Positions 42,269 to 55,173 are shown, counted from the stretch's first letter. The stretch is 64,000 nt of DNA from Dehalococcoidia bacterium (GCA_965197675.1 OZ240221.1:2457637-2521636), one strand, 5' to 3'. Notes: generated by a model not told the origin, from the sequence alone. Numbers and translations are program-made.

Positions 42269-44716
42269 CTAGGCCATGGCTTCGGCCTCAACCGCGGCTT
42301 TGTCGAAGAGGAGTTCATCTTCTGCTGCATCCACAACCACGTGATCCCCTTCTGCGAACTCACTGGACAGTATCTTCTTCGCCAACGGAGTCTCCAAGTA
42401 TCTCTGAACCGTCCTTCTCAGGGGTCTAGCACCAAAGGTAGAATCGAAGCCCCTTTCCGCTAACCAGGACTTGGCTTCAGAGCTAAGCTCTACCGTCACG
42501 CTCCTATCCGCCAGACGCGCCTGCACCTCTTTCACCAGCAAGTCGACTATCATCAGGATCTGCTCCTGAGTCAGCGAATGGAAGATGATAATCTCGTCGA
42601 CTCGGTTAAGGAACTCAGGGCGGAAAGTCTGTCTAAGCGACTTCTCCAGAGTAGCTTTCATCCTATCTTGATCAACCCCCGTTGCATCCTCTCTGCGGAA
42701 GCCCATGGTCTCCTGCTGAAACTCGGATGTCCCCAGATTACTGGTCATTATAATGACCGTGTTGGCGAAGTTGACCCTTCTTCCATGCCCATCAGTCAGT
42801 CTGCCGTCTTCCAATATCTGAAGAAGGACGTTGAAGACGTCTGGGTGGGCCTTCTCTATTTCGTCGAAGAGGACGACTCTAAAGGGATGCTGTCTCACGG
42901 CCTCGGTAAGCTGGCCCCCTTCTTCATAGCCTACATAGCCTGGAGGCGATCCAATCAACCGGGACACCGTGTGCTTCTCCATATACTCCGACATGTCGAG
43001 CCTTATCATGTTCTCTTCACTGTCGAAAAGGTACTCGGTAAGCACTCGAGCTAGCTCAGTTTTGCCGACGCCCGTTGGCCCCAGGAATATGAAGCTCCCG
43101 ATAGGACGATTGGGGTCTTTAAGACCAGCTCTCGCTCTCCTTATAGCCTCGGACACGCCAGAGATGGCCTCCTCCTGCCCGATTACTCGCTCTCTCAGCC
43201 TCTCTTCCATGTGGAGGAGTCTCTCTGCTTCTCCCTCCAATACCCGGGTAACAGGGATACCCGTCCATTTGGCCACTATCTCAGCTATGTCTTCAGCATC
43301 CACGACTTCGTCCAGCTTCTCTCTTTGCAGCCACTCGTTTTTGGCCTCATTGCACTCCTTCTCTATTACCATCCTCTCTGACTTGAGCTCCGCCGCTCTT
43401 TGATAGTCTCCCATCTGGCTGGCGCTCTCTTCTTGATTGAACAGGTCTTGAATCTTTCTTTCCAATTCCTTGACGTTGTTGGGCGCTCCTTCGATCTCGA
43501 TCCGCAGCTTGCTGGATGCTTCGTCGATCAGGTCGATGGCCTTATCCGGCAGAAAACGGTCAGAGATGTACCTGCTGCTGAGTTTTGCGGCCGCCTCCAG
43601 ACCGGAGTCATCTATCTTGATCTTGTGATGAGCTTCGTACCGCGGCCTCACACCTTTCAGAATTTCAACCGTGTCTTCGACAGTGGGCTCTTCGATCTGG
43701 ACCATCTGGAACCTACGCTCTAACGCTGAATCTTTTTCCAAGTGCTTACGATACTCACCCAAAGTGGTGGCGCCAACGCATTGAAGCTCACCCCTTGCAA
43801 GGGCAGGTTTCAGCATGGAGCTGGCATCGATCGCTCCCTCGGCGGCGCCTGCGCCCACCACGGTGTGTATTTCGTCAATGAAAAGTACGATTTCCCCCTG
43901 CGCCTGCCGTATCTCGTCCATCACCGCCTTCAATCGCTCCTCGAACTCACCGCGAAACTTGCTTCCGGCGACCAGCGAAGCCATATCCAGAGATATGACC
44001 CTCCGATTCTTCAATGAGTCCGGGACGTCTCCGGTGACGATCCGCTGGGCCAGGCCTTCGGCGATGGCCGTCTTGCCCACTCCCGCCTCACCTATGATGA
44101 CGGGATTGTTCTTGGTGCGTCGAGTAAGAATCTGAATAACCCTGAGAATCTCCTCTTCTCGACCGATGACGGGGTCCAGCTTACCCCGGCGCGCCTGCTC
44201 TGTAAGATCAATGCTGTACTTTTCCAGGGCTTGGTACCTGCTCTCCGCACGAGGATTCGTAACCCTCTGAGCCCCTCGCACCTCTTGCAAGGCCCGGTAG
44301 AGCTTCTCCAGATCCGCACCGGAATCTCGCAATATCCCGGCGCCCTCCCCATCTCTCTCTGCCATTATGGCGATGAGCATGTGCTCGGTACCAATGAAAT
44401 CATCCCTCATGCGTTCAGACTCGGACTGGGCTCGCTCTCCCACCTGGACAACCCTGGGAGTAATATAGATTTGATGAGTTTCATAGGTAACGGCGGGCGT
44501 TTTTTCAAGCGCCTCACGAACCCTGCCCAGTAGTCTTTCGCGATCGATCCCCAACTTGCCCATGATCTCCCAGGTAAGGCCTCCCTCTTGATCAAGCAAA
44601 GCAAGGAGGATGTGTTCCACGTCCCACTCGGTATGTCGAAGCTGACGTACTATGTCTTGAGAAGTCTGTAGAGCTTCCTGAGCCTTTTCTGTGAACCTAT
44701 CGATTTTAGGAAACAT
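42269..44716 (-). CDS. clpC: ClpC-type Clp/Hsp100 AAA+ chaperone.
   Basis: Two AAA+ modules (GEAGVGKT; GPTGVGKT). A short UVR-like middle motif ([18 protein letters not shown]) rather than a long ClpB M-domain. An MGF loop consistent with ClpP docking. 815 aa. Confidence 0.8.
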
Positions 44717-44719
44717 GGT

Positions 44720-45091
44720 TCACCTCTCTTTCTCTTCGCTATATTCATCAACAACGGTTCCCGCGTCTATACCCTGATTATCCTCTCCCTTGAGGTGAGC
44801 AATCTCTCGCCTCATATTCTGCAACTCTTTCTCCATCTTCTCCATGCGATCGGCCATGCGCAAAATCACGTCAACGCCCGCCAGATTGACACCCAGGTCA
44901 TCAATCAGTGACTTTATCCGTACCAAAAGGTTCACGTCCCTGGTTGAATAGATCCGGGTATTACCCCTTGACCGTGAGGGCTCTATAAGTCCAGCCCTTT
45001 CATAGTATCGCAAAGTCTGGACATGCACTCCCACCATTCTTGCGGCTATGCTTATTACGTATCTCGGCTCATCACTATCGTATATGTTCAT
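44720..45091 (-). CDS. hspR: MerR-family heat-shock regulator, HspR-like.
   Basis: YVISIAARMVGVHVQTLRYYERAGLIEP...GINLAGV resembles actinobacterial HspR. Sits between dnaJ-like and clpC. Confidence 0.7.
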   Translation of the reverse strand: MNIYDSDEPRYVISIAARMVGVHVQTLRYYERAGLIEPSRSRGNTRIYSTRDVNLLVRIKSLIDDLGVNLAGVDVILRMADRMEKMEKELQNMRREIAHLKGEDNQGIDAGTVVDEYSEEKER

Positions 45092-46086
45092 TCTGCACCT
45101 CGACTCTCTCGCAGATCTTTAAGCTGCCGGAACATGGCCAACTCATCCTCTCTGAGAGAGGAGGGCAGCGAGGCCCTGACCTTGACGTGCAGGTCGCCCT
45201 TCCTGGAGGCGCCCAACACAGGCATACCCTTGCCTGCCAGCCTAAAAACGCGTCCGTTCTGCGTGTAAGGTGGAATTTTCAGAGCTACTTTGCTCGTGAG
45301 TGTCGACACGTCTACTTCACCACCTAAGACGGCGGTCAATAGAGGCACTGACACCTCCACGCGAAGGTCATCTTCCTTCCTATCGAAGCGAGAATGGGGC
45401 CTGACAGTGACTACCAGATATATGGTCTTAACACCGACTTCAGACACATCCTTTCCTCGACCAGGACTCACGCGGACTCTGGACCCCGTCTTGACACCGG
45501 CGGGAACCTTCACTTCTAGACGACGATTCTTCTGAATGACTCCCGTTCCACTACATCGAGGGCATGAGCCTCCCCTACCGCCACAGGAGAGACACCTCTC
45601 CTGGTCCACGAACTCAATGGTCCTGGTAGTGCCGTGATAGGCCTCCTCAAGAGTCACCTCAATGGGGTGTTCAATCTCAGATGGAGGCCGCATGGTGAAG
45701 CTGTCCTGAAACGGACCTCGCCCTCGACCCCTCATAACGCTGCCAAGAATGTCGTCCAAGGGACTGGAGCCAAACTCCAGATCCAAATCTACGTCTGGCC
45801 CTGAGCCGCTAGTCTCATAGCGCCAGACGAAGGGGTCCCGCTTACCTCCAGACGGCCCGGAAAAACGGAAGCCACGACCATTCTGGTCGTACTCCTCACG
45901 TTGTTCGGGATCGGAGAGAACTTGATAGGCCTCATTGATCTCCTTGAACTTATCCTCTGTTTTCTTGTCGCCCGGATTCACATCAGGGTGATATTTACGG
46001 GCCAAGCGCCTGTAGGCCTGATGGATCTCCTTCTCAGACGAACTCTTGGGTACTCCAAGTATGTTGTAATAGTTCTTGGCGGCCAT
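45088..46086 (-). CDS. DnaJ-family co-chaperone with J domain and a single CxxCxGxG zinc-finger-like segment.
   Basis: J-domain NYYNILGV...YRRLARKYHPDVN with HPD. CLSCGGRGGSCPRCSGTG. Overlaps hspR by 4 bp, consistent with an operon. Confidence 0.8.
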   Translation of the reverse strand: MAAKNYYNILGVPKSSSEKEIHQAYRRLARKYHPDVNPGDKKTEDKFKEINEAYQVLSDPEQREEYDQNGRGFRFSGPSGGKRDPFVWRYETSGSGPDVDLDLEFGSSPLDDILGSVMRGRGRGPFQDSFTMRPPSEIEHPIEVTLEEAYHGTTRTIEFVDQERCLSCGGRGGSCPRCSGTGVIQKNRRLEVKVPAGVKTGSRVRVSPGRGKDVSEVGVKTIYLVVTVRPHSRFDRKEDDLRVEVSVPLLTAVLGGEVDVSTLTSKVALKIPPYTQNGRVFRLAGKGMPVLGASRKGDLHVKVRASLPSSLREDELAMFRQLKDLRESRGAE

Positions 46087-46333
46087 TTTATCTAATGTTC
46101 AAAACCTTAAACATCTTATCTGATGTCAGCCTTCATGTCAATAGGTTTATCAATGTATATGATAGCATATCCATAATATTACTTCATAATATACTTGACA
46201 ATTTCATTATCATATTTTATACTATTTTTGAATAGCAAAGTTGAGGTAACCAGGCATCGAAATGAACTTTATACGGCGAAACAACCCTGTACTGAAAGTG
46301 AAAGGAGGGCAGCATGGCAAGCACAGCTCTATT

Positions 46334-46348
46334 GAGACTCTCATGAGG
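46334..46348. promoter_or_regulatory. Overlapping palindromes (TGAGACTCTCA / CTCATGAG) in the divergent dnaJ-hspR-clpC / hsp20 control region. Candidate operator.
   Basis: Perfect short palindromes within the 414-bp divergent intergenic region. Does not match the canonical HAIR CTTGAGT-N7-ACTCAAG. Confidence 0.25.
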
Positions 46349-46500
46349 ATCTATGGGGATGTTTACAAGTTTGCAGGGACTTCCTTGAGACCCGCATAAG
46401 CCCAGAAAAATTCCGTCGACGTATGCGCAAAAGTCAGGAACGACACGTCAGCAGGTCACAATACAACCCTTAAAGAGAAAAGGGAAGGAGAAAACTGAAA

Positions 46501-46977
46501 ATGAGAGCTTTAGTTAGCTGGGACCCCATCTTCGGAACGCGTGGCATGAGGCGATTAATCGACAGGGTGTTTGACGACACCTTTTTCCGCCCCTATCGAG
46601 TAACCCCTTGGGCGTTCAGAGAGGATTATCTACCCTTGGACGTATATCAGAACGAGGGGGAACTGGTAGTGAAGGCCTCTTTGCCCGGAGTAAAGCCGGA
46701 GGACGTGGAGGTAACCCTGGACCACAGCACCCTCGTCATAAAGGGAGAGATGAAGGACTCCAGGGAAGGCGACCATGAAGGTTACATGCTTAGAGAGCGA
46801 CGTCTAGGAGTCTTCCATCGCAGGATTGCTCTATCCAAAAATCTGAAGACAGACGAGATAGACGCAACCTTTGAGAACGGTATCCTTACCATCTCCATTC
46901 CCAGGGCCAAGGAGGCCAAGCCAAAGGTGATAGAGGTCAAGCCCGCTCATCACATCGAGGATGAAAAGGCAGAGTAA
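46501..46977 (+). CDS. Hsp20/alpha-crystallin family small heat-shock protein.
   Basis: Alpha-crystallin domain (LPLDVYQNEGELVVKASLPGVKPEDVEVTL...GILTISIP). Confidence 0.85.
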   Translation: MRALVSWDPIFGTRGMRRLIDRVFDDTFFRPYRVTPWAFREDYLPLDVYQNEGELVVKASLPGVKPEDVEVTLDHSTLVIKGEMKDSREGDHEGYMLRERRLGVFHRRIALSKNLKTDEIDATFENGILTISIPRAKEAKPKVIEVKPAHHIEDEKAE

Positions 46978-47018
46978 GACGATCGACCCTCATAGGGTAT
47001 TGTTACTGGCATAGAAAA

Positions 47019-47058
47019 GGCGCCGCTGCGACAATGTCGCAGCGGCGCCTTTCTTTTG
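47019..47058 (+). terminator. Rho-independent terminator downstream of hsp20.
   Basis: 14-bp GC-rich perfect stem GGCGCCGCTGCGAC / GTCGCAGCGGCGCC with a 3-nt loop, followed by TTTCTTTTG. Confidence 0.7.
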
Positions 47059-47082
47059 TCCACTCGAGACCTGGATTCCCCA

Positions 47083-47290
47083 CCTCCAACACCCCTCCCC
47101 TTCGACTACACTCAGGGTAAACTTTAAGCTCAGGGTGAGCGGATGTCTCTTTTGACCCGCTCATGGTGAGCCTAGAGTTTATCCTGAGTTCCCCGAAGGG
47201 AACCATTTGAGCGAGCGGGGGTACAACCAACCCCGGAGCGGACGAGTGAGCCCAAGGCCTTTGCCTTTCTGGGACAGGCTCCACGTGGGA
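47083..47290. repeat. Composite dispersed-repeat cluster (family C element 47129..47188, family D module, family B 47251..47281).
   Basis: Blocks homologous to 8230..8335, 30121..30234 (inverted), 25014..25044 and 26453..26483. Confidence 0.55.
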
Positions 47291-47466
47291 GAGGGCGAGA
47301 GTGACGGAGCGAGGGCATTTTGGGAAGCGCAGTTTCTTGACAATAAATAATTCCCTCTGATAGCATCTATCTCTAACTTAACAATGTGTACCTTTTGCCA
47401 CAGGCACACGTTAGCTTCCTGGAGGTCACCCCATAGCCTGGAATCGATGAACGCTCGTCATCGAGA

Positions 47467-48714
47467 ATGGCACGTGAGAGAGCTATGTCCAACGCCACCG
47501 CGTTAAGATGCAAAGAGTGCACCAGGGAATATCCCCTGGATCCCATGAACGTTTGCGAGTTCTGCTTCGGCCCCCTCGAAGTGACCTACGACTACGATGC
47601 CATCGCCCGCGTTGTAAACAGGGAGAGCATCGAGGCGGGACCCCTCAGTATGTGGCGCTACAAAGACCTGCTGCCTGTAAACGGGCAGGTGGTCGACCTT
47701 GGCACCGGCTTCACCCCTCTGCTCAAGGCCAACAACCTAGGCCGGGAGTTGGGACTTAAAAACCTGTACCTCAAGAATGATTGCGCCAATCCATCCCACT
47801 CTTTCAAGGACCGCGTGGTGGGCGTAGCCAGCACCAAGGCCAAAGAGTTCGAGTTTGACACCATCGCCTGCGCCTCCACAGGCAACCTGGCTGGCAGCGT
47901 GGCAGCCCATGCCGCCCGAGCGGGACTGAAAGCCTACGTGTTCATACCTGCAGACCTGGAGCTGGGCAAGGTGGTGTCTGCCGCAATTTACGGCCCTACT
48001 CTGGTCGCAGTAAAGGGCAGCTACGACGAAGTCAATCGCCTTTGCAGCGAGTTGGCGGACAAATATCAATGGGCGTTCGTGAACATTAACGTCAGGCCTT
48101 ACTACGCCGAGGGTAGTAAGACTCTGGGCTACGAGGTCGCCGAGCAGTTGGGCTGGAAAACGCCCGATTGGGCTATCGTCCCAGGAGCGTCCGGCTCCCT
48201 GTACACCAAGATCTGGAAGGGTATGCAGGAGTTGGCCAGCATAGGCGTCATCGATCCTCCCAGGACAAGAATGGCAATAGCCCAGGCAAGAGGTTGTTCG
48301 CCCATCGTCTCGGCCTTCGAAGAGCATCGCATGGAGATCAAGCCTGTGAAGCCAGACACTCTTGTCAAGTCCCTGGCAATAGGCAACCCCGCCGATGGCT
48401 ACTACGCTTTGAAGACTCTTAAAGAGACCAGAGGCCATGCCATGGCCTCAACAGACCCGGATGTAGTGGCGGGCATGGCCCTGCTTGCCAGCACAGAGGG
48501 CATCTTCGGGGAGACGGCAGCAGGAGTGGTGATAGCGGGTCTGAAGAACCTGGTGGAAAAGGGTGTAATCAAAGAGAACGATGTTACTGTAGCCTTCATC
48601 ACCGGCTCAGGTCTCAAGACCCAGGAACCAGTTCAGGAGCTGGTCGACCCGCTGGTCGTGGAGCCCGACCTCGCGTCCTTCGAAGAGGCACTGAGCGCTC
48701 GAAACAGTGGTTGA
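47467..48714 (+). CDS. thrC: Threonine synthase homologue (PLP fold type II) with an N-terminal Cys4 zinc-ribbon-like segment.
   Basis: SFKDR PLP-lysine motif. CKEC...CEFC N-terminus. About 415 aa. Confidence 0.75.
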   Translation: MARERAMSNATALRCKECTREYPLDPMNVCEFCFGPLEVTYDYDAIARVVNRESIEAGPLSMWRYKDLLPVNGQVVDLGTGFTPLLKANNLGRELGLKNLYLKNDCANPSHSFKDRVVGVASTKAKEFEFDTIACASTGNLAGSVAAHAARAGLKAYVFIPADLELGKVVSAAIYGPTLVAVKGSYDEVNRLCSELADKYQWAFVNINVRPYYAEGSKTLGYEVAEQLGWKTPDWAIVPGASGSLYTKIWKGMQELASIGVIDPPRTRMAIAQARGCSPIVSAFEEHRMEIKPVKPDTLVKSLAIGNPADGYYALKTLKETRGHAMASTDPDVVAGMALLASTEGIFGETAAGVVIAGLKNLVEKGVIKENDVTVAFITGSGLKTQEPVQELVDPLVVEPDLASFEEALSARNSG

Positions 48715-48765
48715 CTCCAGTGCCCGAATTCTCCGGTATTCAATAGCAACTGAGCGGAGCGGTAA

Positions 48766-49008
48766 ATGGTTAAAAAGCGATCCAAATTCACTTTCCCACC
48801 TGACCTAGTGACCCAGCCAATCATCTATCACCTGGGCAAGGAGTTCGATGTCGTGACCAATATCCGTAGGGCCGATGTAACCGAGAACCAAGGGTGGGTG
48901 GTCCTGGAGTTGGAGGGTAACGAGGAAGAGATCAATCGAGGGTTGGCCTGGGTCAGCGACCAAGGCGTGCGAGTAGATCCGGTGGTCGGCGATATTGTGG
49001 AGGGGTGA
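48766..49008 (+). CDS. Small NIL-domain protein (MetN C-terminal-like).
   Basis: QPIIYHLGKEFDVVTNIRRADV...GWVVLELEG matches the NIL pattern. 80 aa. Confidence 0.45.
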   Translation: MVKKRSKFTFPPDLVTQPIIYHLGKEFDVVTNIRRADVTENQGWVVLELEGNEEEINRGLAWVSDQGVRVDPVVGDIVEG

Positions 49009-49072
49009 TACCAGTCTTCTCGGACTGTCGTATAATTAGTGAAAAGAGGTTCGTAGTTTTCAGGAGGTTTCG

Positions 49073-49351
49073 TTGATGAGCGCTACTCTTAAGATCCCCA
49101 CCCCACTGCGTAAGGCAACCAACGGCGAAAGTACCGTTTCGGTGGAAGGGAGCGACCTGCTCCAGTGTATTGACTCGTTGGACTCTCAGTACCCTGGGAT
49201 CAAGGAGAGGTTGTGCTCCGACAACGGCGAGCTGCACAGGTTCGTCAATGTCTACATCAATGGCGAGGACGTCCGCTTCCAGAACGGCCTTGGGACCTCC
49301 GTGAAGGACGGCGACGAGATAAGCATAGTCCCCGCCGTCGCCGGCGGCTAA
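49073..49351 (+). CDS. MoaD/ThiS-family sulfur-carrier protein ending in Gly-Gly.
   Basis: 92-aa beta-grasp-like protein with C-terminus ...ISIVPAVAGG. Confidence 0.65.
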   Translation: MMSATLKIPTPLRKATNGESTVSVEGSDLLQCIDSLDSQYPGIKERLCSDNGELHRFVNVYINGEDVRFQNGLGTSVKDGDEISIVPAVAGG

Positions 49352-49397
49352 TAGGCCTCAACATCTCGTGTAACAACAAACGCCAGTTTCTGTTTGG

Positions 49398-50309
49398 CTA
49401 GTGATGATAAGCACTCTCCTTATATAGTGCTGTCATTTCTTCCTTTTGTGGTTTCCTAAACACAAACAAATGCTCATGCATGATTAAGAAAAAGTTCTTC
49501 TCTCTCGACAGCCGAGTCCAAAGATTCTCCGTTTGTGTATGCCACTGATACTTAATCACGTCCTCTTTGAGGATGAATCCCGCTTCTAAGAACACTTCCA
49601 TTACCCTGAATGCCAGTGGCACATAGTGCCTATTTCTCCTGGTGTCACCTACCAGAATAGCGCAATAGTGGTCAGGTTTAAGGACTCGGAAGAACTCATC
49701 GGCGACAAGCCGCATTTGCGAAACGAACTTAGTAACGTCGCCAACCAGGGACAGGTCCTCTTTCAGTTCCGCCTTTGGATCTGAGTAAGAAATGATATTC
49801 GCATACGGAGGGTGAGTAGCGATTAGGTCAATGGTGGCATCTTTGATTAGATTCAGATTCCGCGTATCACCTTTATAGATTTCAACTCTTGACGTAGGTA
49901 ATGGCACCTTTAGGAGACCGAGTGAGAAGTTTAAGCGGTCCATCGTCAGCATCAGAGCATTCATATTGACATCAATACCGATAGCGTTGCGTCCCGTCAG
50001 CTTGCACTCCACTAGAGTGGTGCTACCACCACACATTGAATCGAGTACTAAATCACCTGGAGGGCTATAGCGTAGGATTAGGTTACGTGCTATCTGGGGT
50101 GCCCAGTTGCCTCGGTAACTAGAGCGGTGAGTGGCCCAGCTACCTCGTTGGGGAAATGACCACAGAGTAGTAGTCTCGGTCTTGAAATCTGTCGGTTGCA
50201 GATCCTTGGGACACTGCTGGCCTCGGAGACGGATCTTGGCTTTCCCAACTTCGACGGTTTTTTGTCGGGCCAGAAAACGCTGGTAATCCGCCTGAGACAG
50301 AAGCTGCAT
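49398..50309 (-). CDS. DNA methyltransferase of the N6_N4 (PF01555-like) family, with the usual C-terminal motifs X-I moved to the front and motif IV reading HPPY.
   Basis: WSFPQRG...APQIARNLILRYSPPGDLVLDSMCGGSTT (motifs X-I) precedes IDLIATHPPYANI (IV) and FFRVLKPDHYCAILVGD. Low GC compared with flanking genes. Confidence 0.7.
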   Translation of the reverse strand: MQLLSQADYQRFLARQKTVEVGKAKIRLRGQQCPKDLQPTDFKTETTTLWSFPQRGSWATHRSSYRGNWAPQIARNLILRYSPPGDLVLDSMCGGSTTLVECKLTGRNAIGIDVNMNALMLTMDRLNFSLGLLKVPLPTSRVEIYKGDTRNLNLIKDATIDLIATHPPYANIISYSDPKAELKEDLSLVGDVTKFVSQMRLVADEFFRVLKPDHYCAILVGDTRRNRHYVPLAFRVMEVFLEAGFILKEDVIKYQWHTQTENLWTRLSREKNFFLIMHEHLFVFRKPQKEEMTALYKESAYHH

Positions 50310-50310
50310 A

Positions 50311-50397
50311 GATCAGATCGGGGATCGATCCGATCCTACAGATCATTAGCAAAAGATCAAGATCATTTGGCTCCATTTTTTCTGTATGTAGCTGATC
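50311..50397. promoter_or_regulatory. GATC-dense spacer with 9 GATC sites in 87 bp, including the palindrome GGATCGATCC. Lies between the nuclease and methyltransferase genes, immediately 5' of the methyltransferase ATG.
   Basis: GATC at 50311, 50316, 50323, 50327, 50332, 50341, 50355, 50361 and 50394. About 0.3 would be expected by chance. Confidence 0.55.
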
Positions 50398-50427
50398 TGG
50401 GAAAGGAGACAATTCCTCGAAATTATC

Positions 50428-51354
50428 TCACCTGCCTTGATAGGCTTGCCCCTCATCGCTGAGCCTGTACAGCCCCAACCTCCCAGCTACTCCGCCCTTT
50501 CTAATGAAGAAGTCATCACCATCTTTCCCAACTGTGTGGGCATTTAATCGTCCTCTTATGCTATTGCATAATGTATCCCACTTGTACGGCAGGGCTAGCT
50601 CTTTGGCCCTGGCTTCAACCCAGGTCGAAATGTCTCTCAGGTGCACATATCCCTCGGCATCTCCCGCCAAGTTTTTCATAGCTTGAATTATTAAGCCCCT
50701 TTGAGTCGGGGCCGGACCCTCAAGATAATCTTCTCTTCTTTTGAGTTCCTTGAGTAGCCGCTGAGTTTTCTGGTCTCTTAGCGCTTTTCGCCCTTCATTC
50801 CTCACCCGTTTATAGATTCTTTCATAGTCCTCTAAGTACGCCTCATCCGGTCTGAAAATAGTCTCCTGTTTTCTAAAGCGATCGTAGACCGAAAAGATTT
50901 GCTCTGTCAGCGGATCCAATCTAGAAGCGTGAATGGCCAAATTCAACTCTGCGTTTAGCTCAAAACCACTTTTTGTCAAATTCGATGACCCCACCACAAA
51001 ACAGCACTGATCCTCAGGACGCTCAATAATATAGAGCTTAGGATGGAATAGTGGTACATCATCTTGAGACGGGTCAGAAAAGGCATAAAATTTCAAATTC
51101 GGGTGACCCGTTCTGGCCCGAATGAGCCACTCCATGGCTTTAGGCTCGGATATTCTAAAATCTAACCCAAAAACGATTTCAAAGCTGTCACCAAGCGCAA
51201 GGATATTATTTAATTGGTCCTCGATACTATTGAGACCAGACAACCTGATGAACGCCGTGGCAAAACGAGCAGACGATGCCCCATCAAGTTGCCGCACTAG
51301 GAAGTTAGTGAGCGTTTCCTCATGATTGTCGATGACAGTAATTGATGGCCTCAT
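50428..51354 (-). CDS. PLD-family (single HKD motif) nuclease with a C-terminal winged-helix-like domain. The ORF-track start at 51393 would be GTG; the first ATG is at 51354.
   Basis: HPKLYIIE...VVGSSNLT...NAELNLAI resembles Nuc/BfiI-type PLD nucleases. C-terminus ...FFIRKGGVAGRLGLYRLSDEG resembles Mrr-N/HARE-type winged helix. Confidence 0.6.
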   Translation of the reverse strand: MRPSITVIDNHEETLTNFLVRQLDGASSARFATAFIRLSGLNSIEDQLNNILALGDSFEIVFGLDFRISEPKAMEWLIRARTGHPNLKFYAFSDPSQDDVPLFHPKLYIIERPEDQCCFVVGSSNLTKSGFELNAELNLAIHASRLDPLTEQIFSVYDRFRKQETIFRPDEAYLEDYERIYKRVRNEGRKALRDQKTQRLLKELKRREDYLEGPAPTQRGLIIQAMKNLAGDAEGYVHLRDISTWVEARAKELALPYKWDTLCNSIRGRLNAHTVGKDGDDFFIRKGGVAGRLGLYRLSDEGQAYQGR

Positions 51355-51424
51355 GAAATTTCTAGTGTTCGCAAATAGGGAATAACTAATCACTGTCCAA
51401 TAGCCAGATTTGGACTAGAGTAAG

Positions 51425-53137
51425 CTATCCGTCATCCATCAACTCTTCCAGCACCTCTCGTACGAGCTCTAAGGGAACGTCGTTACGGATGACGGGCTTG
51501 CCGATCTCATCCAGCAGCACCCATCGGATGGTCTTGCCCCTGACCTTCTTGTCCAACTGCATCGCATCGATAAGGGCGTTCACATCTATCTTAGGCGAAG
51601 AAGTAGGCAGCCCGTACCTTTCCAGTAGTGATCTCTGCCTCTCAACCGACCTCTCAGGCAGACCAGCTACCCGATGGCTGATCGACGCGGCTCCCATCAT
51701 CCCCACTGACACGGCTTCGCCATGGAGGAACCGCCCATAGCCGGCAACCGCCTCGATGCTGTGTCCTATGGTGTGTCCGTAGTTCAAAATAGTCCTCAGC
51801 CCAGACTCCTTCTCATCCTGGCTCACCACCTGTCCCTTCAAAGCTGCGCTGCGCCGGACTACCTCGGTGGTGCTCTCAGGTTCCAATGCCATAATCGGCT
51901 CTGAGCCTCCTTCCAGTATATCCAACAACTCAGGGTCCATGATCATACCGTGCTTTATCACCTCGGCCCACCCGGACGTTAGCTCCCGAGGAGGCAGAGT
52001 AGATAAGACTTGCACGTCGGCTATAACCATCCGAGGTTGGTAGAACGCACCGATGAGATTCTTGCCCCTAGCGTGATTTATGGCTACCTTCCCCCCGATG
52101 GACGAATCCATCATCGCTACCAGGCTGGTAGGTATCTGGACTAACGGAAGTCCTCGAAGGTAAGTGGCCGCGGCATATCCGCCCAGGTCTCCCACCACTC
52201 CACCACCCAGAGCAACTACGGGGCTACCCCTCTCCACCCTGTGCTCCACCAGCAAATCGTATATAGCCGAAAGGGCCTCCGGAGACTTGCTTCTCTCTCC
52301 AGCTGGCACTTGCTTTTCCAAAACCTGGAATCCCGCGCTCTTCAACGACTCTGCAGCCCGAAGGCCATAGGCAGAATAGACCACCTCATCAGCTATTATC
52401 ACCGCGGTGCCTGATAAGCCCAAGTTCCTGGTCCGCTGGCCCAACTCGTCTAGCCCTCCCCAACCTACGAACACGGGATATTGGGCTGTGGGAGTAGTCA
52501 CCACGAACGCTGCTCCCATCTCCTGGCAGTAAGGGGCTTCCGACTCTTTTCTTACGAGTCCGGCCGGTGGAAACATATCTCCAGTGTCTTTATCGAGGCG
52601 GCGCCAAGCATACTCCACCCCCCTCACAACCTCCTCCACCACCTCCTCCATCTTTAGGTCATCGGTGTGGACGGTCCAGTCGGCCATAGCATAAAAGGGT
52701 TGGCGATACTCCTTGAGAGACTCGATCCTCTTTAGCGGGTCTGGACCCGCAAGCAGGGGGCGAACGGCTTCAGGGTTAGAGTCATCGAGACGGAGGCGTT
52801 TCAGGACGATGTTGGGTTTGGCCTCCAGGCATATCACCACACCGCTGGACATCATCAGCCTGCGGTTCTCTGGATCCAGTACCATTCCACCCCCCGTCGA
52901 GACCACCACCCCCTGTTGACGGCATGCCTCCACTAATACTTTACGCTCCCGCTCTCGAAAGCCCTCTTCCCTCTCCTGGCTGAATATCTGGGGTATGGTC
53001 ATATTTGCCCGTGCCTGGACTTCTTCGTCTGTATCAACGAACTCGCGATGAAGCCGACGAGCCAGGTTACGTCCAACCTCCGACTTGCCCGTTCCAGAAA
53101 AACCCACCAGGAAGATACTCTCGGACATGTCAATCAC
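51425..53137 (-). CDS. aroKB: Bifunctional shikimate kinase / 3-dehydroquinate synthase fusion.
   Basis: N-terminal P-loop FLVGFSGTGKS (AroK). C-terminal DHQS motifs (GGGVVGDLGGYAAATYLRG; DSSIGGKVAIN). Confidence 0.85.
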   Translation of the reverse strand: MIDMSESIFLVGFSGTGKSEVGRNLARRLHREFVDTDEEVQARANMTIPQIFSQEREEGFRERERKVLVEACRQQGVVVSTGGGMVLDPENRRLMMSSGVVICLEAKPNIVLKRLRLDDSNPEAVRPLLAGPDPLKRIESLKEYRQPFYAMADWTVHTDDLKMEEVVEEVVRGVEYAWRRLDKDTGDMFPPAGLVRKESEAPYCQEMGAAFVVTTPTAQYPVFVGWGGLDELGQRTRNLGLSGTAVIIADEVVYSAYGLRAAESLKSAGFQVLEKQVPAGERSKSPEALSAIYDLLVEHRVERGSPVVALGGGVVGDLGGYAAATYLRGLPLVQIPTSLVAMMDSSIGGKVAINHARGKNLIGAFYQPRMVIADVQVLSTLPPRELTSGWAEVIKHGMIMDPELLDILEGGSEPIMALEPESTTEVVRRSAALKGQVVSQDEKESGLRTILNYGHTIGHSIEAVAGYGRFLHGEAVSVGMMGAASISHRVAGLPERSVERQRSLLERYGLPTSSPKIDVNALIDAMQLDKKVRGKTIRWVLLDEIGKPVIRNDVPLELVREVLEELMDDG

Positions 53138-53167
53138 TGATCTAAGAATCGGTTTGCCTGGCAGAGC

Positions 53168-54337
53168 CTAACAGTTTGCCTTGGTAATTGCTTCGAGGTA
53201 GTCTTCGTAATTGCGCTTGGTCTCCTCGACGTGGTCGCCACCGAACTTCTCGAGAAGGGCATCTGCCAGCACTATAGCCATCATCGCCTCGCCAACTATG
53301 CCCGCCGGCGGCACCTGGCAAACGTCGCTGCGCTCATAATGGGCTTGAATCCTCTCCCCAGTATCCAAGTCCACCGATGGCAGGGGTTTGGCCAATGTCG
53401 ATATGGGCTTGACCGCCACCCGCACTATGATGTCTTCACCGTTACTCATGCCGCCCTCTATCCCGCCGGCCCGGTTGGTGGATCTCTTCCATCTACGATT
53501 CTGAGACGGATCGAAGGGCTCGATCACGTCATGAACTTGGGAGCCTCGAAGGCCGATAGACTCGAAGCCCAGACCGATCTCAACCCCCTTCATGGCATTG
53601 ATGCTGAGCATGGCCTGAGCTATCCGGCCATCCAGCTTTCTGTCCCAGTGGACGTAGCTGCCCAACCCCACTGGAACACCGATGGCTACCACCTCGAAGA
53701 CGCCTCCCACCGTATCTCCCGCCTCTTTAGCCTCATCTATGGCTGCCATCATCAGCTTTTCAGCTTCAGGGTCCGCACACCTAACGGGAGATTCCTCCAC
53801 CAACCCCCAGTCAATGGGACGGCAGAGCTCCGCCGAATGCTCTCCGATGGCGACTGTGCTGCTGTGAATCTCTATGCCGAACTCCTCCAGGAACCTTCGG
53901 CACACGGCGCCCACCCCACTCCGGGCCGCCGTCTCACGAGCGCTTGCCCGCTCCAGAACGTTGCGAACATCTCTATGACCGTACTTCAAGATGCCGGCTA
54001 AATCGGCGTGACCAGGCCGAAGCCTGGTCACCCGTTTAGTATCGCCCTCTATTGGGTCCACGCTCATAGCCTCACGCCAGTTCTCCCAGTCCTTGTTCTC
54101 GATCCACAGGGCGATGGGACTGCCGAGAGTCAGGCCGTGTCGCACCCCTGACTTAATGAGGGCTCTATCTTTCTCTATCTGCATACGGCCGCCTCGGCCG
54201 TGACCCTTTTGACGTCGTGCCAGGTCTTGAACAATATAGTCTTCCGAAATGGATAACCCGGCGGGCATCCCCTCGATGATTACCGACAGTCCCTGCCCAT
54301 GAGACTCTCCTGCTGTGAGAAAACGGATATGTCCCAT
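53168..54337 (-). CDS. aroC: Chorismate synthase.
   Basis: FLTAGESHGQGL N-terminus and conserved RPGHAD motif. Confidence 0.9.
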   Translation of the reverse strand: MGHIRFLTAGESHGQGLSVIIEGMPAGLSISEDYIVQDLARRQKGHGRGGRMQIEKDRALIKSGVRHGLTLGSPIALWIENKDWENWREAMSVDPIEGDTKRVTRLRPGHADLAGILKYGHRDVRNVLERASARETAARSGVGAVCRRFLEEFGIEIHSSTVAIGEHSAELCRPIDWGLVEESPVRCADPEAEKLMMAAIDEAKEAGDTVGGVFEVVAIGVPVGLGSYVHWDRKLDGRIAQAMLSINAMKGVEIGLGFESIGLRGSQVHDVIEPFDPSQNRRWKRSTNRAGGIEGGMSNGEDIIVRVAVKPISTLAKPLPSVDLDTGERIQAHYERSDVCQVPPAGIVGEAMMAIVLADALLEKFGGDHVEETKRNYEDYLEAITKANC

Positions 54338-55173
54338 CAGTTGAGTGCCTCCTTGGCCGACTCGAACATCACGTCTGTGGGGGCTCGCTCACCTGTCCAT
54401 TTCTGGAAAGCTAAGGCCCCTTGGTAAATCAGCATAGGTAGTCCGTCCAGGGCCTTGGCTCCTCGTTTTTTGGCCTCTAGGAGTAGGGGTGTCTCCATTG
54501 GATTATATACCAAGTCACACACCAAGGTTTCAGAGCGAATCACCTCTGCAAGCAGCGGAAGACGGCCCTCCATTGCGCCGTGTCTCATACCTATAGAGGT
54601 ACAGTTGACCAGAAGGTCATATTCCGTTGCTTCATCCAAAGCTGACCTGACCTCGATGCCGACTCCCTCACTACTCCGGATAAGACACGCCGCCAGTGCT
54701 TCAGCCCTCTCGATGGTGCGATTGACAATCACCAGAGATGTTACGCCTGCCTTCACCAGGCCATACGCTACGGCCCTGGCAGCGCCCCCTGCTCCCATCA
54801 TCGCCACCCTTTTGCTGACAGCCTCAAATCCCCCATCCTCTCGAAGTCCCCTCATGAAACCGGGAGCATCAGTGTTATAACCAATGAGCCGTCCCCCCCT
54901 GTTAACGATGGTATTGATACTGCCTACGTCCCTGCCGGTAGTGTCCAAGTCGTCCAACAGGCCCATTACATTCTCCTTGTGAGGAATGGTCACGTTAGCG
55001 CCCAGCACCTCTGAGGATCTGAGATACTCTACCCTCTCCTGCAGCTTTGAAGGCTCCGTCTCCCAGGCGGAGTATCGAACGTCCAGGTGAAGATAATCTA
55101 AGGCTGCCTGCTGAAATATCGGGGATACAGAGTGGGCTAGAGGATAGCCCAGTATACCGACGTGCTTGGTCAC
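54337..55173 (-). CDS. aroE: Shikimate 5-dehydrogenase.
   Basis: GILGYPLAHSVSP, GANVTIPHK and Rossmann MMGAGGAARAV motifs. Confidence 0.85.
   Translation of the reverse strand: MTKHVGILGYPLAHSVSPIFQQAALDYLHLDVRYSAWETEPSKLQERVEYLRSSEVLGANVTIPHKENVMGLLDDLDTTGRDVGSINTIVNRGGRLIGYNTDAPGFMRGLREDGGFEAVSKRVAMMGAGGAARAVAYGLVKAGVTSLVIVNRTIERAEALAACLIRSSEGVGIEVRSALDEATEYDLLVNCTSIGMRHGAMEGRLPLLAEVIRSETLVCDLVYNPMETPLLLEAKKRGAKALDGLPMLIYQGALAFQKWTGERAPTDVMFESAKEALN

What the first reader, a model, noticed from the sequence alone, without database searches (positions are those of the whole stretch)
50311..50397. Nine GATC sites packed into the 87-bp spacer between the nuclease and methyltransferase genes
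GATC occurs at 50311, 50316, 50323, 50327, 50332, 50341, 50355, 50361 and 50394, where about 0.3 would be expected by chance. The palindrome GGATCGATCC is included. The cluster fills the whole spacer and abuts the methyltransferase ATG; no Shine-Dalgarno sequence is evident.

GATC clusters are classic methylation-state sensors, as in SeqA/Dam and Dam-controlled phase-variation switches. Here the cluster could be the system's own target motif, used for autoregulation or establishment control. Alternatively it could be a degenerate GATC(N) microsatellite that is prone to slippage and phase variation.
Basis: seen in the sequence. Interest (0 to 1): 0.65.

Follow-up and report, generated by a model that had tools for sequence, protein, structure and literature searches.

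The report
GATC-packed control region of a methyltransferase gene
Nine GATC sites crowded in front of a DNA methyltransferase gene form a conserved control element that travels with the gene through many Dehalococcoidia genomes, probably letting the enzyme sense methylation of its own target and set its own level next to a nuclease that appears to read methylated GATC.

Summary
Nine GATC sites lie in 87 bp (50311-50397), where 0.36 are expected. No other 87-bp window in the 64 kb holds more than 4.

Both genes are on the minus strand. The true spacer is 118 bp (50310-50427), and the cluster sits directly 5' of the methyltransferase ATG at 50309.

The cluster is not a microsatellite. TRF finds nothing, and five assemblies keep identical length and all nine sites.

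It is a conserved element, tAGATCATTTGATCTTGATCTTTTG-16 nt-TArGATCnGATCGCTyyGGCGrTCTGrTCnATG. It precedes orthologous methyltransferases (56-71% identity) in at least 16 other Dehalococcoidia loci, whatever nuclease gene lies upstream. It evolves far more slowly than synonymous sites (1 of 78 mismatches against dS 0.22-0.31).

Homologs of this methyltransferase neighbour DpnII-family (10 loci) or DpnI-family (10 or more loci) nucleases, so GATC is very likely its own target.

Best explanation, inferred rather than shown: a multi-site, methylation-responsive promoter/leader that autoregulates the methyltransferase (candidate -35 TTGATC, -10 TAGGAT, and a hairpin over the start codon).

One thing is unexpected. 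The partners here (PLD plus winged helix) and in relatives (DpnI-like) look modification-dependent, so the pair is not a classical R-M system.

I rate it a new variant of a known kind, with interest about 0.6.

The parts
50311..50397 (.). Cluster of nine GATC sites
   Evidence: There are 9 sites against 0.36 expected, and this is the only cluster of 5 or more in the window.
50310..50427 (-). Whole intergenic spacer between the nuclease stop and the methyltransferase ATG (118 bp)
   Evidence: Four of the five assemblies are identical; the fifth (L084) has 117/118 identity.
50310..50368 (-). Part of the spacer homologous to the element upstream of orthologous methyltransferase genes (AAATGATCTTGATCTTTTG...TAGGATCGGATCGATCCCCGATCTGATCT). 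Upstream of about 50368, homology to the DpnI-linked loci ends.
   Evidence: Alignments A1 and A5. The pattern scan finds only methyltransferase-linked copies.
50355..50360 (-). Candidate -35 hexamer TTGATC, which contains a GATC
   Evidence: Read from the sequence. At the homologous position, L013 has TTGACG-16 nt-TAGGAT, which passes the promoter scan. The window itself scores 8/12 and fails the scan. This is an inference.
50333..50338 (-). Candidate -10 hexamer TAGGAT; its last three bases are the GAT of one of the two GATC sites invariant across relatives
   Evidence: TAnGATCnGATCG is invariant in 14/14 sequences. This is an inference.
50305..50340 (-). Imperfect palindrome or RNA hairpin (15+4 pairs) that ends on the start codon. 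It includes GGATCGATCC at its apex.
   Evidence: Fold -18.3 kcal/mol, z -4.3. Relatives give -15.8 to -22 kcal/mol, z -3.2 to -5.5. 93% of cells are paired but there is little true covariation.
49398..50309 (-). Methyltransferase gene, 303 aa, PF01555. Motif order is permuted: motif I (DSMCGGSTT) lies before motif IV (THPPY).
   Evidence: Homologs cover 99% of the 303 aa, so the ATG at 50309 is the start. The source annotation's 204-aa call is truncated.
50428..51393 (-). Nuclease gene: N-terminal PLD/HKD nuclease domain plus C-terminal winged helix. The longest ORF starts at GTG 51393; the annotated 308-aa form starts at ATG 51354.
49398..51393 (-). Two-gene low-GC island (42-53% GC, mostly 42-48%, against 54-62% in the flanks), inserted between aroK-aroB and the thiS/NIL/PALP genes

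Best explanation
The GATC cluster is the conserved cis-regulatory region (promoter/operator plus short leader) of the methyltransferase gene. The GATC sites are that enzyme's own targets.

Proposed working (inferred):
1. Transcription of the methyltransferase starts inside the spacer, from a sigma-70-like promoter. Its -35 (TTGATC) and -10 (TAGGAT-C) are built from GATC sites. More sites lie upstream, in the promoter spacer and over the transcription start.
2. When the sites are unmodified (after entry into a new cell, or after replication) the promoter has one activity. Once the enzyme has modified them the activity changes.
3. Enzyme level is thereby tied to the methylation state of GATC. 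Seven to nine sites would make the response steep.
4. A stable hairpin made by the promoter-proximal GATC sites covers the SD-less start codon. It would keep read-through transcripts from the nuclease gene poorly translated.

Shown: the cluster is real, conserved, specific to this gene, and selectively constrained, and the enzyme family is genomically tied to GATC-specific nucleases.

Inferred: the promoter position, the GATC specificity of this particular enzyme, the modified base (m6A or m4C), and the direction of the methylation effect.
For: (1) Statistics. Nine sites against 0.36 expected, unique in the window. In about 650 kb of related loci, clusters of 6 or more GATC per 90 bp occur only at methyltransferase-linked positions.

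(2) The element travels with the gene. It lies directly upstream of orthologs (56-71% identity) in L002-L007, L068, L010-L014, L088 and L089. It does so whether the upstream gene is DpnI-like, an unknown 330-aa gene, or the PLD nuclease. A 24-base pattern for the element finds only such loci in metagenomes and none in viral contigs.

(3) Constraint. Between L002 and L003 the spacer has 1/78 mismatches, while dS is 0.22 for the methyltransferase and 0.31 for the DpnI-like gene. TAnGATCnGATCG is invariant in 14/14 sequences.

(4) GATC itself appears to be the selected unit. Lineages gain and lose individual sites by substitution but keep 4-9 of them. The window gained two inside the hairpin. Flanking bases of the nine sites are all different, so the common denominator is the 4-bp GATC.

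(5) Target inference. Family members at 50-55% identity sit next to DpnII-family endonucleases (PF04556, E 5e-73) in 10 loci and next to DpnI-family genes in 10 or more loci. Many loci carrying the family are GATC-depleted, with O/E down to 0.06.

(6) Promoter. TTGACG-16 nt-TAGGAT at the homologous position of L013 passes the scan. Where the -35 GATC is lost (L013, L014) it changes toward the consensus, TTGATC to TTGACG. In L009 and L016 a homologous cluster lies 44-146 nt upstream of the start of a nuclease-like gene that precedes the methyltransferase. That fits a promoter/operator rather than a start-codon-bound signal.

(7) An unrelated beta-class methyltransferase, paired with a Sau3AI/MutH-family gene in L086, also has TTGACA plus GATCcGATCaacGATC right before its ATG.

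(8) Precedent. In the CfrBI system, methylation of the system's own site in the promoter region regulates expression of the system (bioRxiv 10.64898/2025.12.04.692298; Beletskaya et al. 2000 as cited in PMC3874152).
Against: - The promoter is not demonstrated. In the window and in L002 the hexamers match only 8/12 and the scan reports nothing. The L009, L016 and L086 variants have a poor -10 (AACGAT).
- GATC specificity rests on gene neighbourhood. No characterised homolog was identified, and motif IV is an unusual HPPY.
- Archaeal and other family members, including the DpnII-partnered ones, have 0-1 GATC upstream. The cluster is therefore a clade-specific device, not a general property of the family.
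- The neighbouring nucleases look methyl-GATC-dependent, so simple R-M establishment logic does not apply directly.
- Because GATC is a palindrome, several copies automatically create hairpin potential, so the hairpin and the sites cannot be separated by sequence alone.
Confidence: 0.55

Rival explanations
1. Platform for the partner nuclease, or a sensor of foreign adenine methylation. The cluster would be a high-avidity binding site for the winged-helix domain (and the catalytic domain) of the neighbouring methyl-GATC-reading nuclease. When the sites become m6A-methylated, by a phage Dam or by the neighbouring enzyme itself, the nuclease would bind or cut there. That would switch the methyltransferase gene and so manage the conflict between a GATC methyltransferase and a Gm6ATC-dependent nuclease.
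For: - In relatives the upstream gene is a DpnI-family protein that keeps the DpnI methyl-pocket residues L129, R135, W138 and G140 (residues from PMC4117772).
- The window nuclease has a PLD plus winged-helix architecture. Its family is stand-alone in 5 of 5 other contexts. Sister branches carry the DpnI_C winged helix.
- PMC11037411 reports that PLD-wH and PD-(D/E)XK-wH fusions show Dam-dependent toxicity and that tandem sites with short spacers enhance cleavage. It names 'tight expression control' as a possible way out of methyltransferase/nuclease conflict.
- The invariant core is two sites 5 bp apart, GATCnGATC.
Against: - The window's winged helix is not detected as DpnI_C, and hhalign aligns only the PLD part and the first residues after it, not the winged helix as a whole. 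Its methyl-GATC reading is therefore unproven.
- In L009 and L016 the cluster occurs with other partner genes (PD-(D/E)XK_11; DUF6996/6997) and no winged-helix nuclease was seen.
- Cutting inside one's own operon would be costly.
Confidence: 0.2
2. Translational control by an RNA hairpin. The selected feature would be a stable 5'-leader hairpin that hides the SD-less start codon. GATC richness would then be largely a by-product of a palindromic stem.
For: - Hairpins of -15.8 to -22 kcal/mol (z -3.2 to -5.5) end on the start codon in all variants.
- 93% of cells are paired. Several pairs switch between G-U and A-U or G-C, which pair in RNA but not as a DNA palindrome. One pair shows CG to UA changes on both sides.
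- There is no SD, and two relatives use a TTG start.
Against: - Three conserved GATC sites (tAGATCATTTGATCTTGATC) lie outside the hairpin.
- Covariation is weak: 1 pair, and 19-32 of 500 shuffles reach the observed values.
- If the predicted -10 is used, the transcript starts inside the 5' arm and the hairpin cannot form.
- In L009 and L016 the cluster is 44-146 nt from the next start codon.
- There is no Rfam match.
Confidence: 0.15
3. Slippage-prone GATC(N) microsatellite giving phase variation of the methyltransferase.
For: Only the visual impression of closely spaced GATC units (spacings of 5, 7, 4, 5, 9, 14, 6 and 33 bp).
Against: - TRF finds no tandem repeat even at score 30. The only direct repeat is an 8-mer that occurs twice.
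- Five assemblies from different samples have identical length and sites, including a strain with 182 substitutions in 6.9 kb and no indels.
- Relatives at 56-71% protein identity keep the register, with one 1-nt indel.
Confidence: 0.02
4. Chance or local composition.
For: None.
Against: P about 1e-5 window-wide; 0 of 200,000 shuffles reach 9 sites; the element is conserved across species.
Confidence: 0.01

Closest known systems
CfrBI restriction-modification system: promoter control through methylation of the system's own recognition site
   Same: A recognition site of the system's own methyltransferase lies in the promoter region, and its methylation state regulates expression (bioRxiv 10.64898/2025.12.04.692298; Beletskaya 2000 as cited). 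This is the same logic proposed here.
   Different: CfrBI has one site, shared by divergent M and R promoters, and a classical REase partner. Here there are 7-9 sites, the genes are co-directional, there is a hairpin over the start codon, and the partner nuclease appears modification-dependent. Nothing has been tested experimentally here.
Dam-dependent promoters and switches in enterobacteria (IS10/Tn5 transposase promoters, pap, agn43; SeqA-bound GATC clusters). From established knowledge, not tested here.
   Same: GATC sites overlap promoter or regulator sites, so methylation state gates transcription. Clustered GATC acts as a methylation-state reader.
   Different: Those depend on an orphan host Dam and on Lrp, OxyR or SeqA, use 1-3 sites (or an oriC-type array), and regulate other genes. 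Here the cluster sits on the methyltransferase's own gene, in a horizontally acquired island in Dehalococcoidia, and no Dam, SeqA, Lrp or OxyR was found or tested.
Winged-helix fusion endonucleases that sense Gm6ATC: DpnI (PD-(D/E)XK-wH) and PLD-wH enzymes Aba4572I and CbaI (PMC11037411)
   Same: The window nuclease is PLD plus a winged helix, from Chloroflexota like Aba4572I and CbaI. Relatives of the module carry true DpnI-family genes. That paper also notes an amino-methyltransferase next to a PLD-wH enzyme and the resulting conflict.
   Different: The window's winged helix is a different sequence family (no PF17726 hit). The paper reports adjacent methyltransferases as rare or frame-shifted. 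Here the methyltransferase is intact and under purifying selection in at least 16 genomes (dN/dS 0.12-0.37) and carries a dedicated GATC-rich control region.
DpnII/MboI-type GATC restriction-modification systems
   Same: Members of the same methyltransferase family (50-55% identity) sit beside DpnII-family endonucleases, sometimes as two paralogous methyltransferases, as in DpnII.
   Different: The window has no DpnII-family gene. This methyltransferase is a permuted PF01555 enzyme with HPPY, not Dam-like (PF02086) or DpnA-like. The DpnII-partnered homologs lack the GATC cluster.
Methyltransferase autorepression through an N-terminal HTH (SsoII, EcoRII, MspI) and C-protein/C-box control
   Same: The purpose is the same: to set the M level and the timing in a mobile R-M unit (PMC3874152).
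   Different: No HTH domain was detected in the methyltransferase, and there is no C-protein-size gene in the two-gene island. The repeated unit is the enzyme's likely catalytic target, not a C-box.

Membership tests
Methylation-sensing R-M promoter (CfrBI type) | The recognition site(s) of the system's own methyltransferase lie within the promoter elements of an R-M gene | tested here: inconclusive
   GATC overlaps the candidate -35 (TTGATC) and -10 (TAGGAT-C). However, the promoter passes the scan only in L013, not in the window. GATC specificity is inferred from DpnII and DpnI neighbours.
Methylation-sensing R-M promoter (CfrBI type) | Methylation of the site changes transcription | not testable with these tools
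   Needs reporter fusions or in vitro transcription on methylated templates.
Dam/SeqA or Dam/Lrp/OxyR phase-variation switch | An orphan Dam plus a competing DNA-binding regulator whose sites contain the GATCs, giving heritable ON/OFF states | not tested
   Only the 12 largest ORFs around the finding (42269-55173) were annotated, and none is a Dam (PF02086), SeqA, Lrp or OxyR homolog. The rest of the window, the rest of the genome and any regulator sites were not examined. The architecture (7-9 sites on the methyltransferase's own gene) differs.
Simple-sequence-repeat contingency locus | Tandem array of identical short units | tested here: not met
   TRF reports 0 arrays at score 30. Spacing is irregular.
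Simple-sequence-repeat contingency locus | Copy-number variation between strains | tested here: not met
   Five assemblies have identical length. There is no indel in 6.9 kb against a strain 97.4% identical.
Amino-methyltransferase, PF01555 N6_N4_Mtase | AdoMet motif I (FxGxG-like) and catalytic motif IV ((D/N/S)PP(Y/F)) | tested here: met
   Pfam E 1.1e-23. Motif I is DSMCGGSTT and motif IV is THPPY, in the order I then IV. The first residue of motif IV (H) is atypical, so the modified base (m6A or m4C) cannot be read from it.
GATC-specific methyltransferase | Demonstrated methylation of GATC, or close homology to a characterised GATC enzyme | tested here: inconclusive
   No characterised homolog was found. 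Support comes only from DpnII-family (10 loci) and DpnI-family (10 or more loci) neighbours and from GATC depletion.
Classical Type II R-M pair | An endonuclease that needs the adjacent methyltransferase for host protection, so the two co-occur | tested here: not met
   Homologs of the nuclease (36-48% identity) have no methyltransferase within 3 kb in 5 of 5 other contexts.
PLD-wH modification-dependent endonucleases (Aba4572I/CbaI type) | N-terminal PLD/HKD nuclease domain | tested here: met
PLD-wH modification-dependent endonucleases (Aba4572I/CbaI type) | C-terminal DpnI-type winged helix that reads Gm6ATC | tested here: inconclusive
PLD-wH modification-dependent endonucleases (Aba4572I/CbaI type) | Dam-dependent toxicity or cleavage | not testable with these tools
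   Needs expression in dam+ and dam- hosts.
Known structured RNA (Rfam) | Match to a covariance model | tested here: not met
   0 matches at E<=1 on 50200-50500, both strands.

The most novel reading that the evidence does not exclude
The window may show one instance of an undescribed three-part defence module, conserved in Dehalococcoidia. Its parts are a methyl-GATC-dependent nuclease (DpnI-like or PLD-winged-helix, interchangeable), an intact GATC amino-methyltransferase, and a multi-GATC control region between them.

Two versions are not excluded.
(a) The enzyme writes GATm4C, which would make the host's own GATC sites refractory to its m6A-dependent nuclease. Phage DNA, or DNA methylated by a phage Dam, would still be cut. 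The GATC array would keep the enzyme level matched to replication.
(b) The enzyme writes Gm6ATC and is held off by the array and hairpin. It would fire only on a trigger and make the chromosome a substrate for the neighbouring nuclease, giving abortive infection.

Either version would answer the 'genomic conflict' left open in PMC11037411.
Probability: 0.3. Interest if true: 0.8.

Novelty: new variant of a known kind. Interest (0 to 1): 0.62.

Why it matters
Control of R-M genes by methylation of the system's own site in a promoter is known from very few cases, and those use a single site. Here there is a 7-9-site array, conserved across species and therefore selected. It is attached to a methyltransferase whose neighbours are nucleases of the kind that attack methylated GATC.

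If the array is a methylation sensor, it would be a compact, portable epigenetic feedback element. It would also make directly testable how a GATC methyltransferase and a methyl-GATC-dependent nuclease can coexist. The 2024 study of winged-helix fusion endonucleases raised that question explicitly.

The work also flags a widespread, uncharacterised, permuted PF01555 family (more than 7,000 relatives) as probable GATC methyltransferases of archaea and Chloroflexota. Two unknown partner protein families emerge as candidate new GATC endonucleases.

Tried and rejected
- The promoter/terminator scan found nothing in the window or L002. Only L013 passed, so the promoter remains an inference.
- Rfam gave no match. 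TRF found no tandem repeat. Repeat search found no inverted repeat at seed 6 and only one 8-mer direct repeat.
- The viral-contig scan for the element gave 0 hits, so there is no sign that it is phage-borne.
- I tried to find a characterised homolog or the modified base. NCBIfam and PDB gave only generic motif matches. A literature search for the HPPY motif returned only unrelated Hippo-pathway papers. The S. acidocaldarius methylome paper and the archaeal R-M survey gave no link to this family. Whether the enzyme makes m6A or m4C remains undecided.
- I tested whether the window nuclease's C-terminal domain is DpnI_C. There is no Pfam hit even at E 10, and profile-profile alignment covers only the PLD part and the first residues after it. 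Only the fold (winged helix) is established.
- A 90-aa ORF overlapping the cluster (50140-50412, minus strand) was rejected because it is not conserved in relatives.
- CGATCG as the true target was rejected. That is the predicted specificity reported for the methyltransferase next to Aba4572I. The conserved sites here have all four bases on either flank.
- The Beletskaya 2000 paper (PMC110769) is not held. CfrBI is cited through.

Full report
**The observation.** With 265 GATC in 64 kb, 0.36 are expected in 87 bp. Poisson P(>=9) is 2e-10, or about 1e-5 after allowing for all positions. None of 200,000 shuffles of the spacer exceeded 5. No other 87-bp window holds more than 4 sites, and no other tetramer reaches 9 anywhere. 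GATC is otherwise mildly avoided in this DNA: 265 against 360 in shuffles, and Markov O/E 0.69, third lowest of the 16 palindromic tetramers.

**Anatomy.** Both genes are on the minus strand.
- ORF 50428-51393 carries a PLD/HKD nuclease domain. Its best solved relative is the PLD nuclease domain of the type IV enzyme SauUSI.
- ORF 49398-50309 is a PF01555 amino-methyltransferase with motif I (DSMCGGSTT) before motif IV (THPPY).
- The spacer is 118 bp, and the cluster fills the 87 bp next to the methyltransferase ATG. An in-frame TGA lies 6 nt upstream of that ATG, and homologs of 303 aa cover 99% of the ORF. The ATG at 50309 is therefore the start, and the 204-aa call in the source annotation is a truncation.
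- There is no Shine-Dalgarno sequence.
- The two genes form a low-GC island (42-53% GC, mostly 42-48%, against 54-62% in the flanks) between aroK-aroB and thiS/NIL/PALP genes.
- A cluster member is named as from a Dehalococcoidia MAG.

**The cluster is a conserved element that belongs to the methyltransferase gene.** The closest methyltransferase homologs (about 70% identity) lie downstream of a completely different gene, a DpnI-family protein (PF06044 plus PF17726). Their 78-bp spacer nevertheless carries the same sequence with 7 GATC.

A scan of one genome per species gave 80 loci. A dense GATC cluster upstream of the ATG occurs only in a Dehalococcoidia clade: L002-L007, L068 and L010-L014, with remnants in L008. 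Archaeal and other homologs have 0-1 sites.

The alignment gives tAGATCATTTGATCTTGATCTTTTG, then 16 nt, then TA(A/G)GATCnGATCGCTyyGGCGrTCTGrTCnATG. The stretch TAnGATCnGATCG is invariant in 14/14 sequences. A 24-base pattern for the element found two further metagenomic copies, both arranged DpnI-like gene, element, methyltransferase. It found none in viral contigs.

In L009 and L016 a recognisably related cluster (8 and 6 sites; TTGATCTTTTGATC...GATCaacGATCcGATCGC) lies upstream of a nuclease-like gene that precedes the methyltransferase. That gene is PDDEXK_11 in L009 and DUF6996/6997/7226 in L016. There the cluster heads a two-gene unit. In the window, homology to the DpnI-linked loci begins at about 50368. 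The upstream 59 bp of the spacer are unrelated, which marks the junction where the methyltransferase-plus-element cassette meets the PLD gene.

**Selection.** Between L002 and L003 the methyltransferase has dS 0.22 and the DpnI-like gene dS 0.31, yet the spacer differs at 1 of 78 positions. Both proteins are under purifying selection (dN/dS 0.12-0.38). Individual GATC sites come and go by substitution while the total stays at 4-9. The window gained two inside the hairpin and one further upstream. The flanks of the nine sites differ, so the 4-bp GATC is the common unit.

**It is not a slippage repeat.** TRF finds nothing. The spacer is length-invariant with all nine sites in five assemblies from different samples. 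Three of the four other assemblies are at least 99.8% identical to the window. The fourth (L084) is 97.4% identical, with 182 substitutions and no indels in 6.9 kb.

**What the methyltransferase targets.** I clustered the neighbouring genes of all loci and scanned representatives against Pfam.
- DpnII-family endonucleases (E 5e-73) are adjacent to family members in 10 loci, sometimes with two paralogous methyltransferases.
- DpnI-family genes are adjacent in 10 or more loci.
- Two unknown families, c0 (20 loci) and c3 (8 loci), account for many of the rest.
- The c0 loci are strongly GATC-depleted, with median O/E 0.30 and a minimum of 0.06.

DpnII and DpnI are both GATC-specific families. Family members are at least 50% identical to the window protein. 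GATC is therefore very probably the target; I estimate about 0.8. No characterised homolog was found, and the HPPY motif does not reveal whether N6-adenine or N4-cytosine is modified.

**Promoter, operator and hairpin.** On the minus strand the element reads TTGATC (50360-50355), 16 nt, TAGGAT (50338-50333), 23 nt, ATG.
- The scan tool's threshold is missed in the window and in L002 (8/12). It is passed at the homologous position of L013 (TTGACG-16-TAGGAT, 9/12).
- Where the -35 GATC is lost, the hexamer moves toward the consensus.
- The -10 keeps A2 and T6, and its GAT belongs to an invariant GATC.
- The L009, L016 and L086 variants also show TTGA(T/C)(C/A), then 17-19 nt, then AACGAT-C.
- The promoter-proximal sites form an imperfect palindrome. 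As RNA it folds into a hairpin of -16 to -22 kcal/mol (z -3.2 to -5.5) that ends on the start codon. 93% of cells pair, with several G-U/A-U alternations, but there is only one pair with changes on both sides, so covariation is weak.
- With the predicted -10, transcripts would start inside the 5' arm. The hairpin would then form only on read-through transcripts from the nuclease gene, and no terminator follows that gene.
- No Rfam family matches.

- Its homologs (36-48% identity) stand alone, with no methyltransferase within 3 kb, in five of five other contexts. Standing alone is the signature used to recognise modification-dependent enzymes.
- Sister branches of the same PLD family carry the DpnI_C winged helix. 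The window's winged helix is a different sequence family.
- The DpnI-like proteins of the related loci keep the methyl-pocket residues L129, R135, W138 and G140 and the guanine contacts defined for R.DpnI. Catalytic E64 is Q (PMC4117772).
- PMC11037411 shows that PD-(D/E)XK-wH and PLD-wH fusions, including two from Chloroflexota, behave as Gm6ATC-dependent enzymes. It reports adjacent methyltransferases as rare or frame-shifted. It notes a potential self-restriction conflict for a PLD-wH enzyme next to an amino-methyltransferase, and it names tight expression control as one possible solution.

Here the methyltransferase is intact and constrained in at least 16 genomes, and it carries the GATC array. 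The gene pair is therefore not a classical Type II R-M system.

A further locus, L086, combines a PLD-DpnI_C nuclease, a Sau3AI/MutH-family gene and an unrelated beta-class methyltransferase. The start of that methyltransferase is preceded by TTGACA and three GATC. GATC sites at the 5' end of GATC-linked methyltransferase genes thus recur independently.

**Most likely mechanism.** I take the array to be a methylation-responsive promoter/leader through which the methyltransferase senses the modification state of its own target and adjusts its synthesis (confidence 0.55). The logic is that of CfrBI, where methylation of the system's own site in the promoter region regulates expression, but multiplied to 7-9 sites.

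Rivals that may coexist with it:
- the array as a binding or cutting platform for the methyl-GATC-reading partner nuclease (0.2);
- a purely RNA-level hairpin control (0.15).

Slippage (0.02) and chance (0.01) are rejected.

**Novelty and score.** Regulation of an R-M gene by its own recognition site is known. A conserved multi-site GATC array, tied to a methyltransferase that sits beside modification-dependent nucleases, was not found described in the literature searched. I rate it a new variant of a known kind, with interest 0.62.

The most novel reading not excluded is a three-part defence module in which the methyltransferase either immunises host GATC sites (for example as GATm4C) against the neighbouring m6A-dependent nuclease, or serves as a tightly held suicide trigger. 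I give it probability about 0.3 and interest 0.8 if true.

Re-analysis of long-read kinetics for the related contigs, or expression of the enzyme in dam- E. coli, would decide quickly.

Noticed in passing
window 50428-51393, compared with L084 3001-3927: Between the window and a sister strain, the nuclease gene has dS 0.21 (71 substitutions in 966 bp). The flanking genes, the spacer and the methyltransferase have dS 0.02-0.07. The boundaries coincide with the gene ends. This suggests allelic replacement or diversifying turnover of the nuclease alone.
   Followed up: partly
window 49398-50309: Public annotations of this genome call the methyltransferase as 204 aa from an internal Met (P0028, P0222, P0223). 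The first 99 residues, which are conserved across the family, are thereby lost, probably because the true ATG has no ribosome-binding site.
   Followed up: yes
Loci L015, L031, L044, L045, L048, L052, L054, L059, L067, L072, L074 and others (cluster c0); L017, L018, L020, L028, L029, L041, L080 (cluster c3): Two protein families with no Pfam or NCBIfam match (c0, 130-218 aa, 20 loci; c3, about 212 aa, 8 loci) sit directly next to homologs of the methyltransferase. The c0 loci are extremely GATC-poor, with O/E down to 0.06. These are candidate new GATC restriction endonuclease families.
   Followed up: partly
L086 3001-5781: A GATC-themed island. A PLD-DpnI_C nuclease lies convergent with a Sau3AI/MutH-family gene plus a beta-class N6_N4 methyltransferase. 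The ATG of that methyltransferase is preceded by TTGACA and GATCcGATCaacGATC. The same GATCaacGATCcGATC pieces occur in the L009 and L016 clusters.
   Followed up: partly
L002-L007, L010, L012, L014, L068, L088: DpnI-like genes (e.g. L002 3137-3922): The DpnI-family proteins sampled from this clade (L002, L006, L088) have Q in place of catalytic E64 (YQLKS against FELKS in R.DpnI). L002, the one aligned to R.DpnI, keeps D53, K66 and the methyl-binding pocket. It is unknown whether they are active PD-QxK nucleases or methyl-GATC binders.
   Followed up: partly
L004 2893-3882 and the equivalent gene in L007: An unknown gene of 329-337 aa (no Pfam match) is inserted between the DpnI-like gene and the GATC element. 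The element stays attached to the methyltransferase.
   Followed up: no
window 44542-44593: This is the second densest GATC spot of the window: 4 sites in 52 bp, including GATCGATC. It lies inside the 5' part of the clpB coding sequence.
   Followed up: no
window 42269-46977: Heat-shock gene group: clpB, a MerR-family (HspR-like) regulator and dnaJ on the minus strand, followed by a 36-40% GC intergenic region (about 46000-46450) and a divergent hsp20.
   Followed up: no
window 47467-48714 and about 48766-49400: A PLP-dependent enzyme with an N-terminal NinF-like zinc ribbon lies next to small ThiS-like and NIL-domain genes. This may be a sulfur-carrier-dependent amino-acid synthesis cluster. 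It forms the right border of the island.
   Followed up: no
L088 4447-4452 and L089 about 1403-1408: Two metagenomic orthologs start the methyltransferase with TTG and, like the others, have no Shine-Dalgarno sequence. This suggests very weak or unusual translation initiation for this gene.
   Followed up: no
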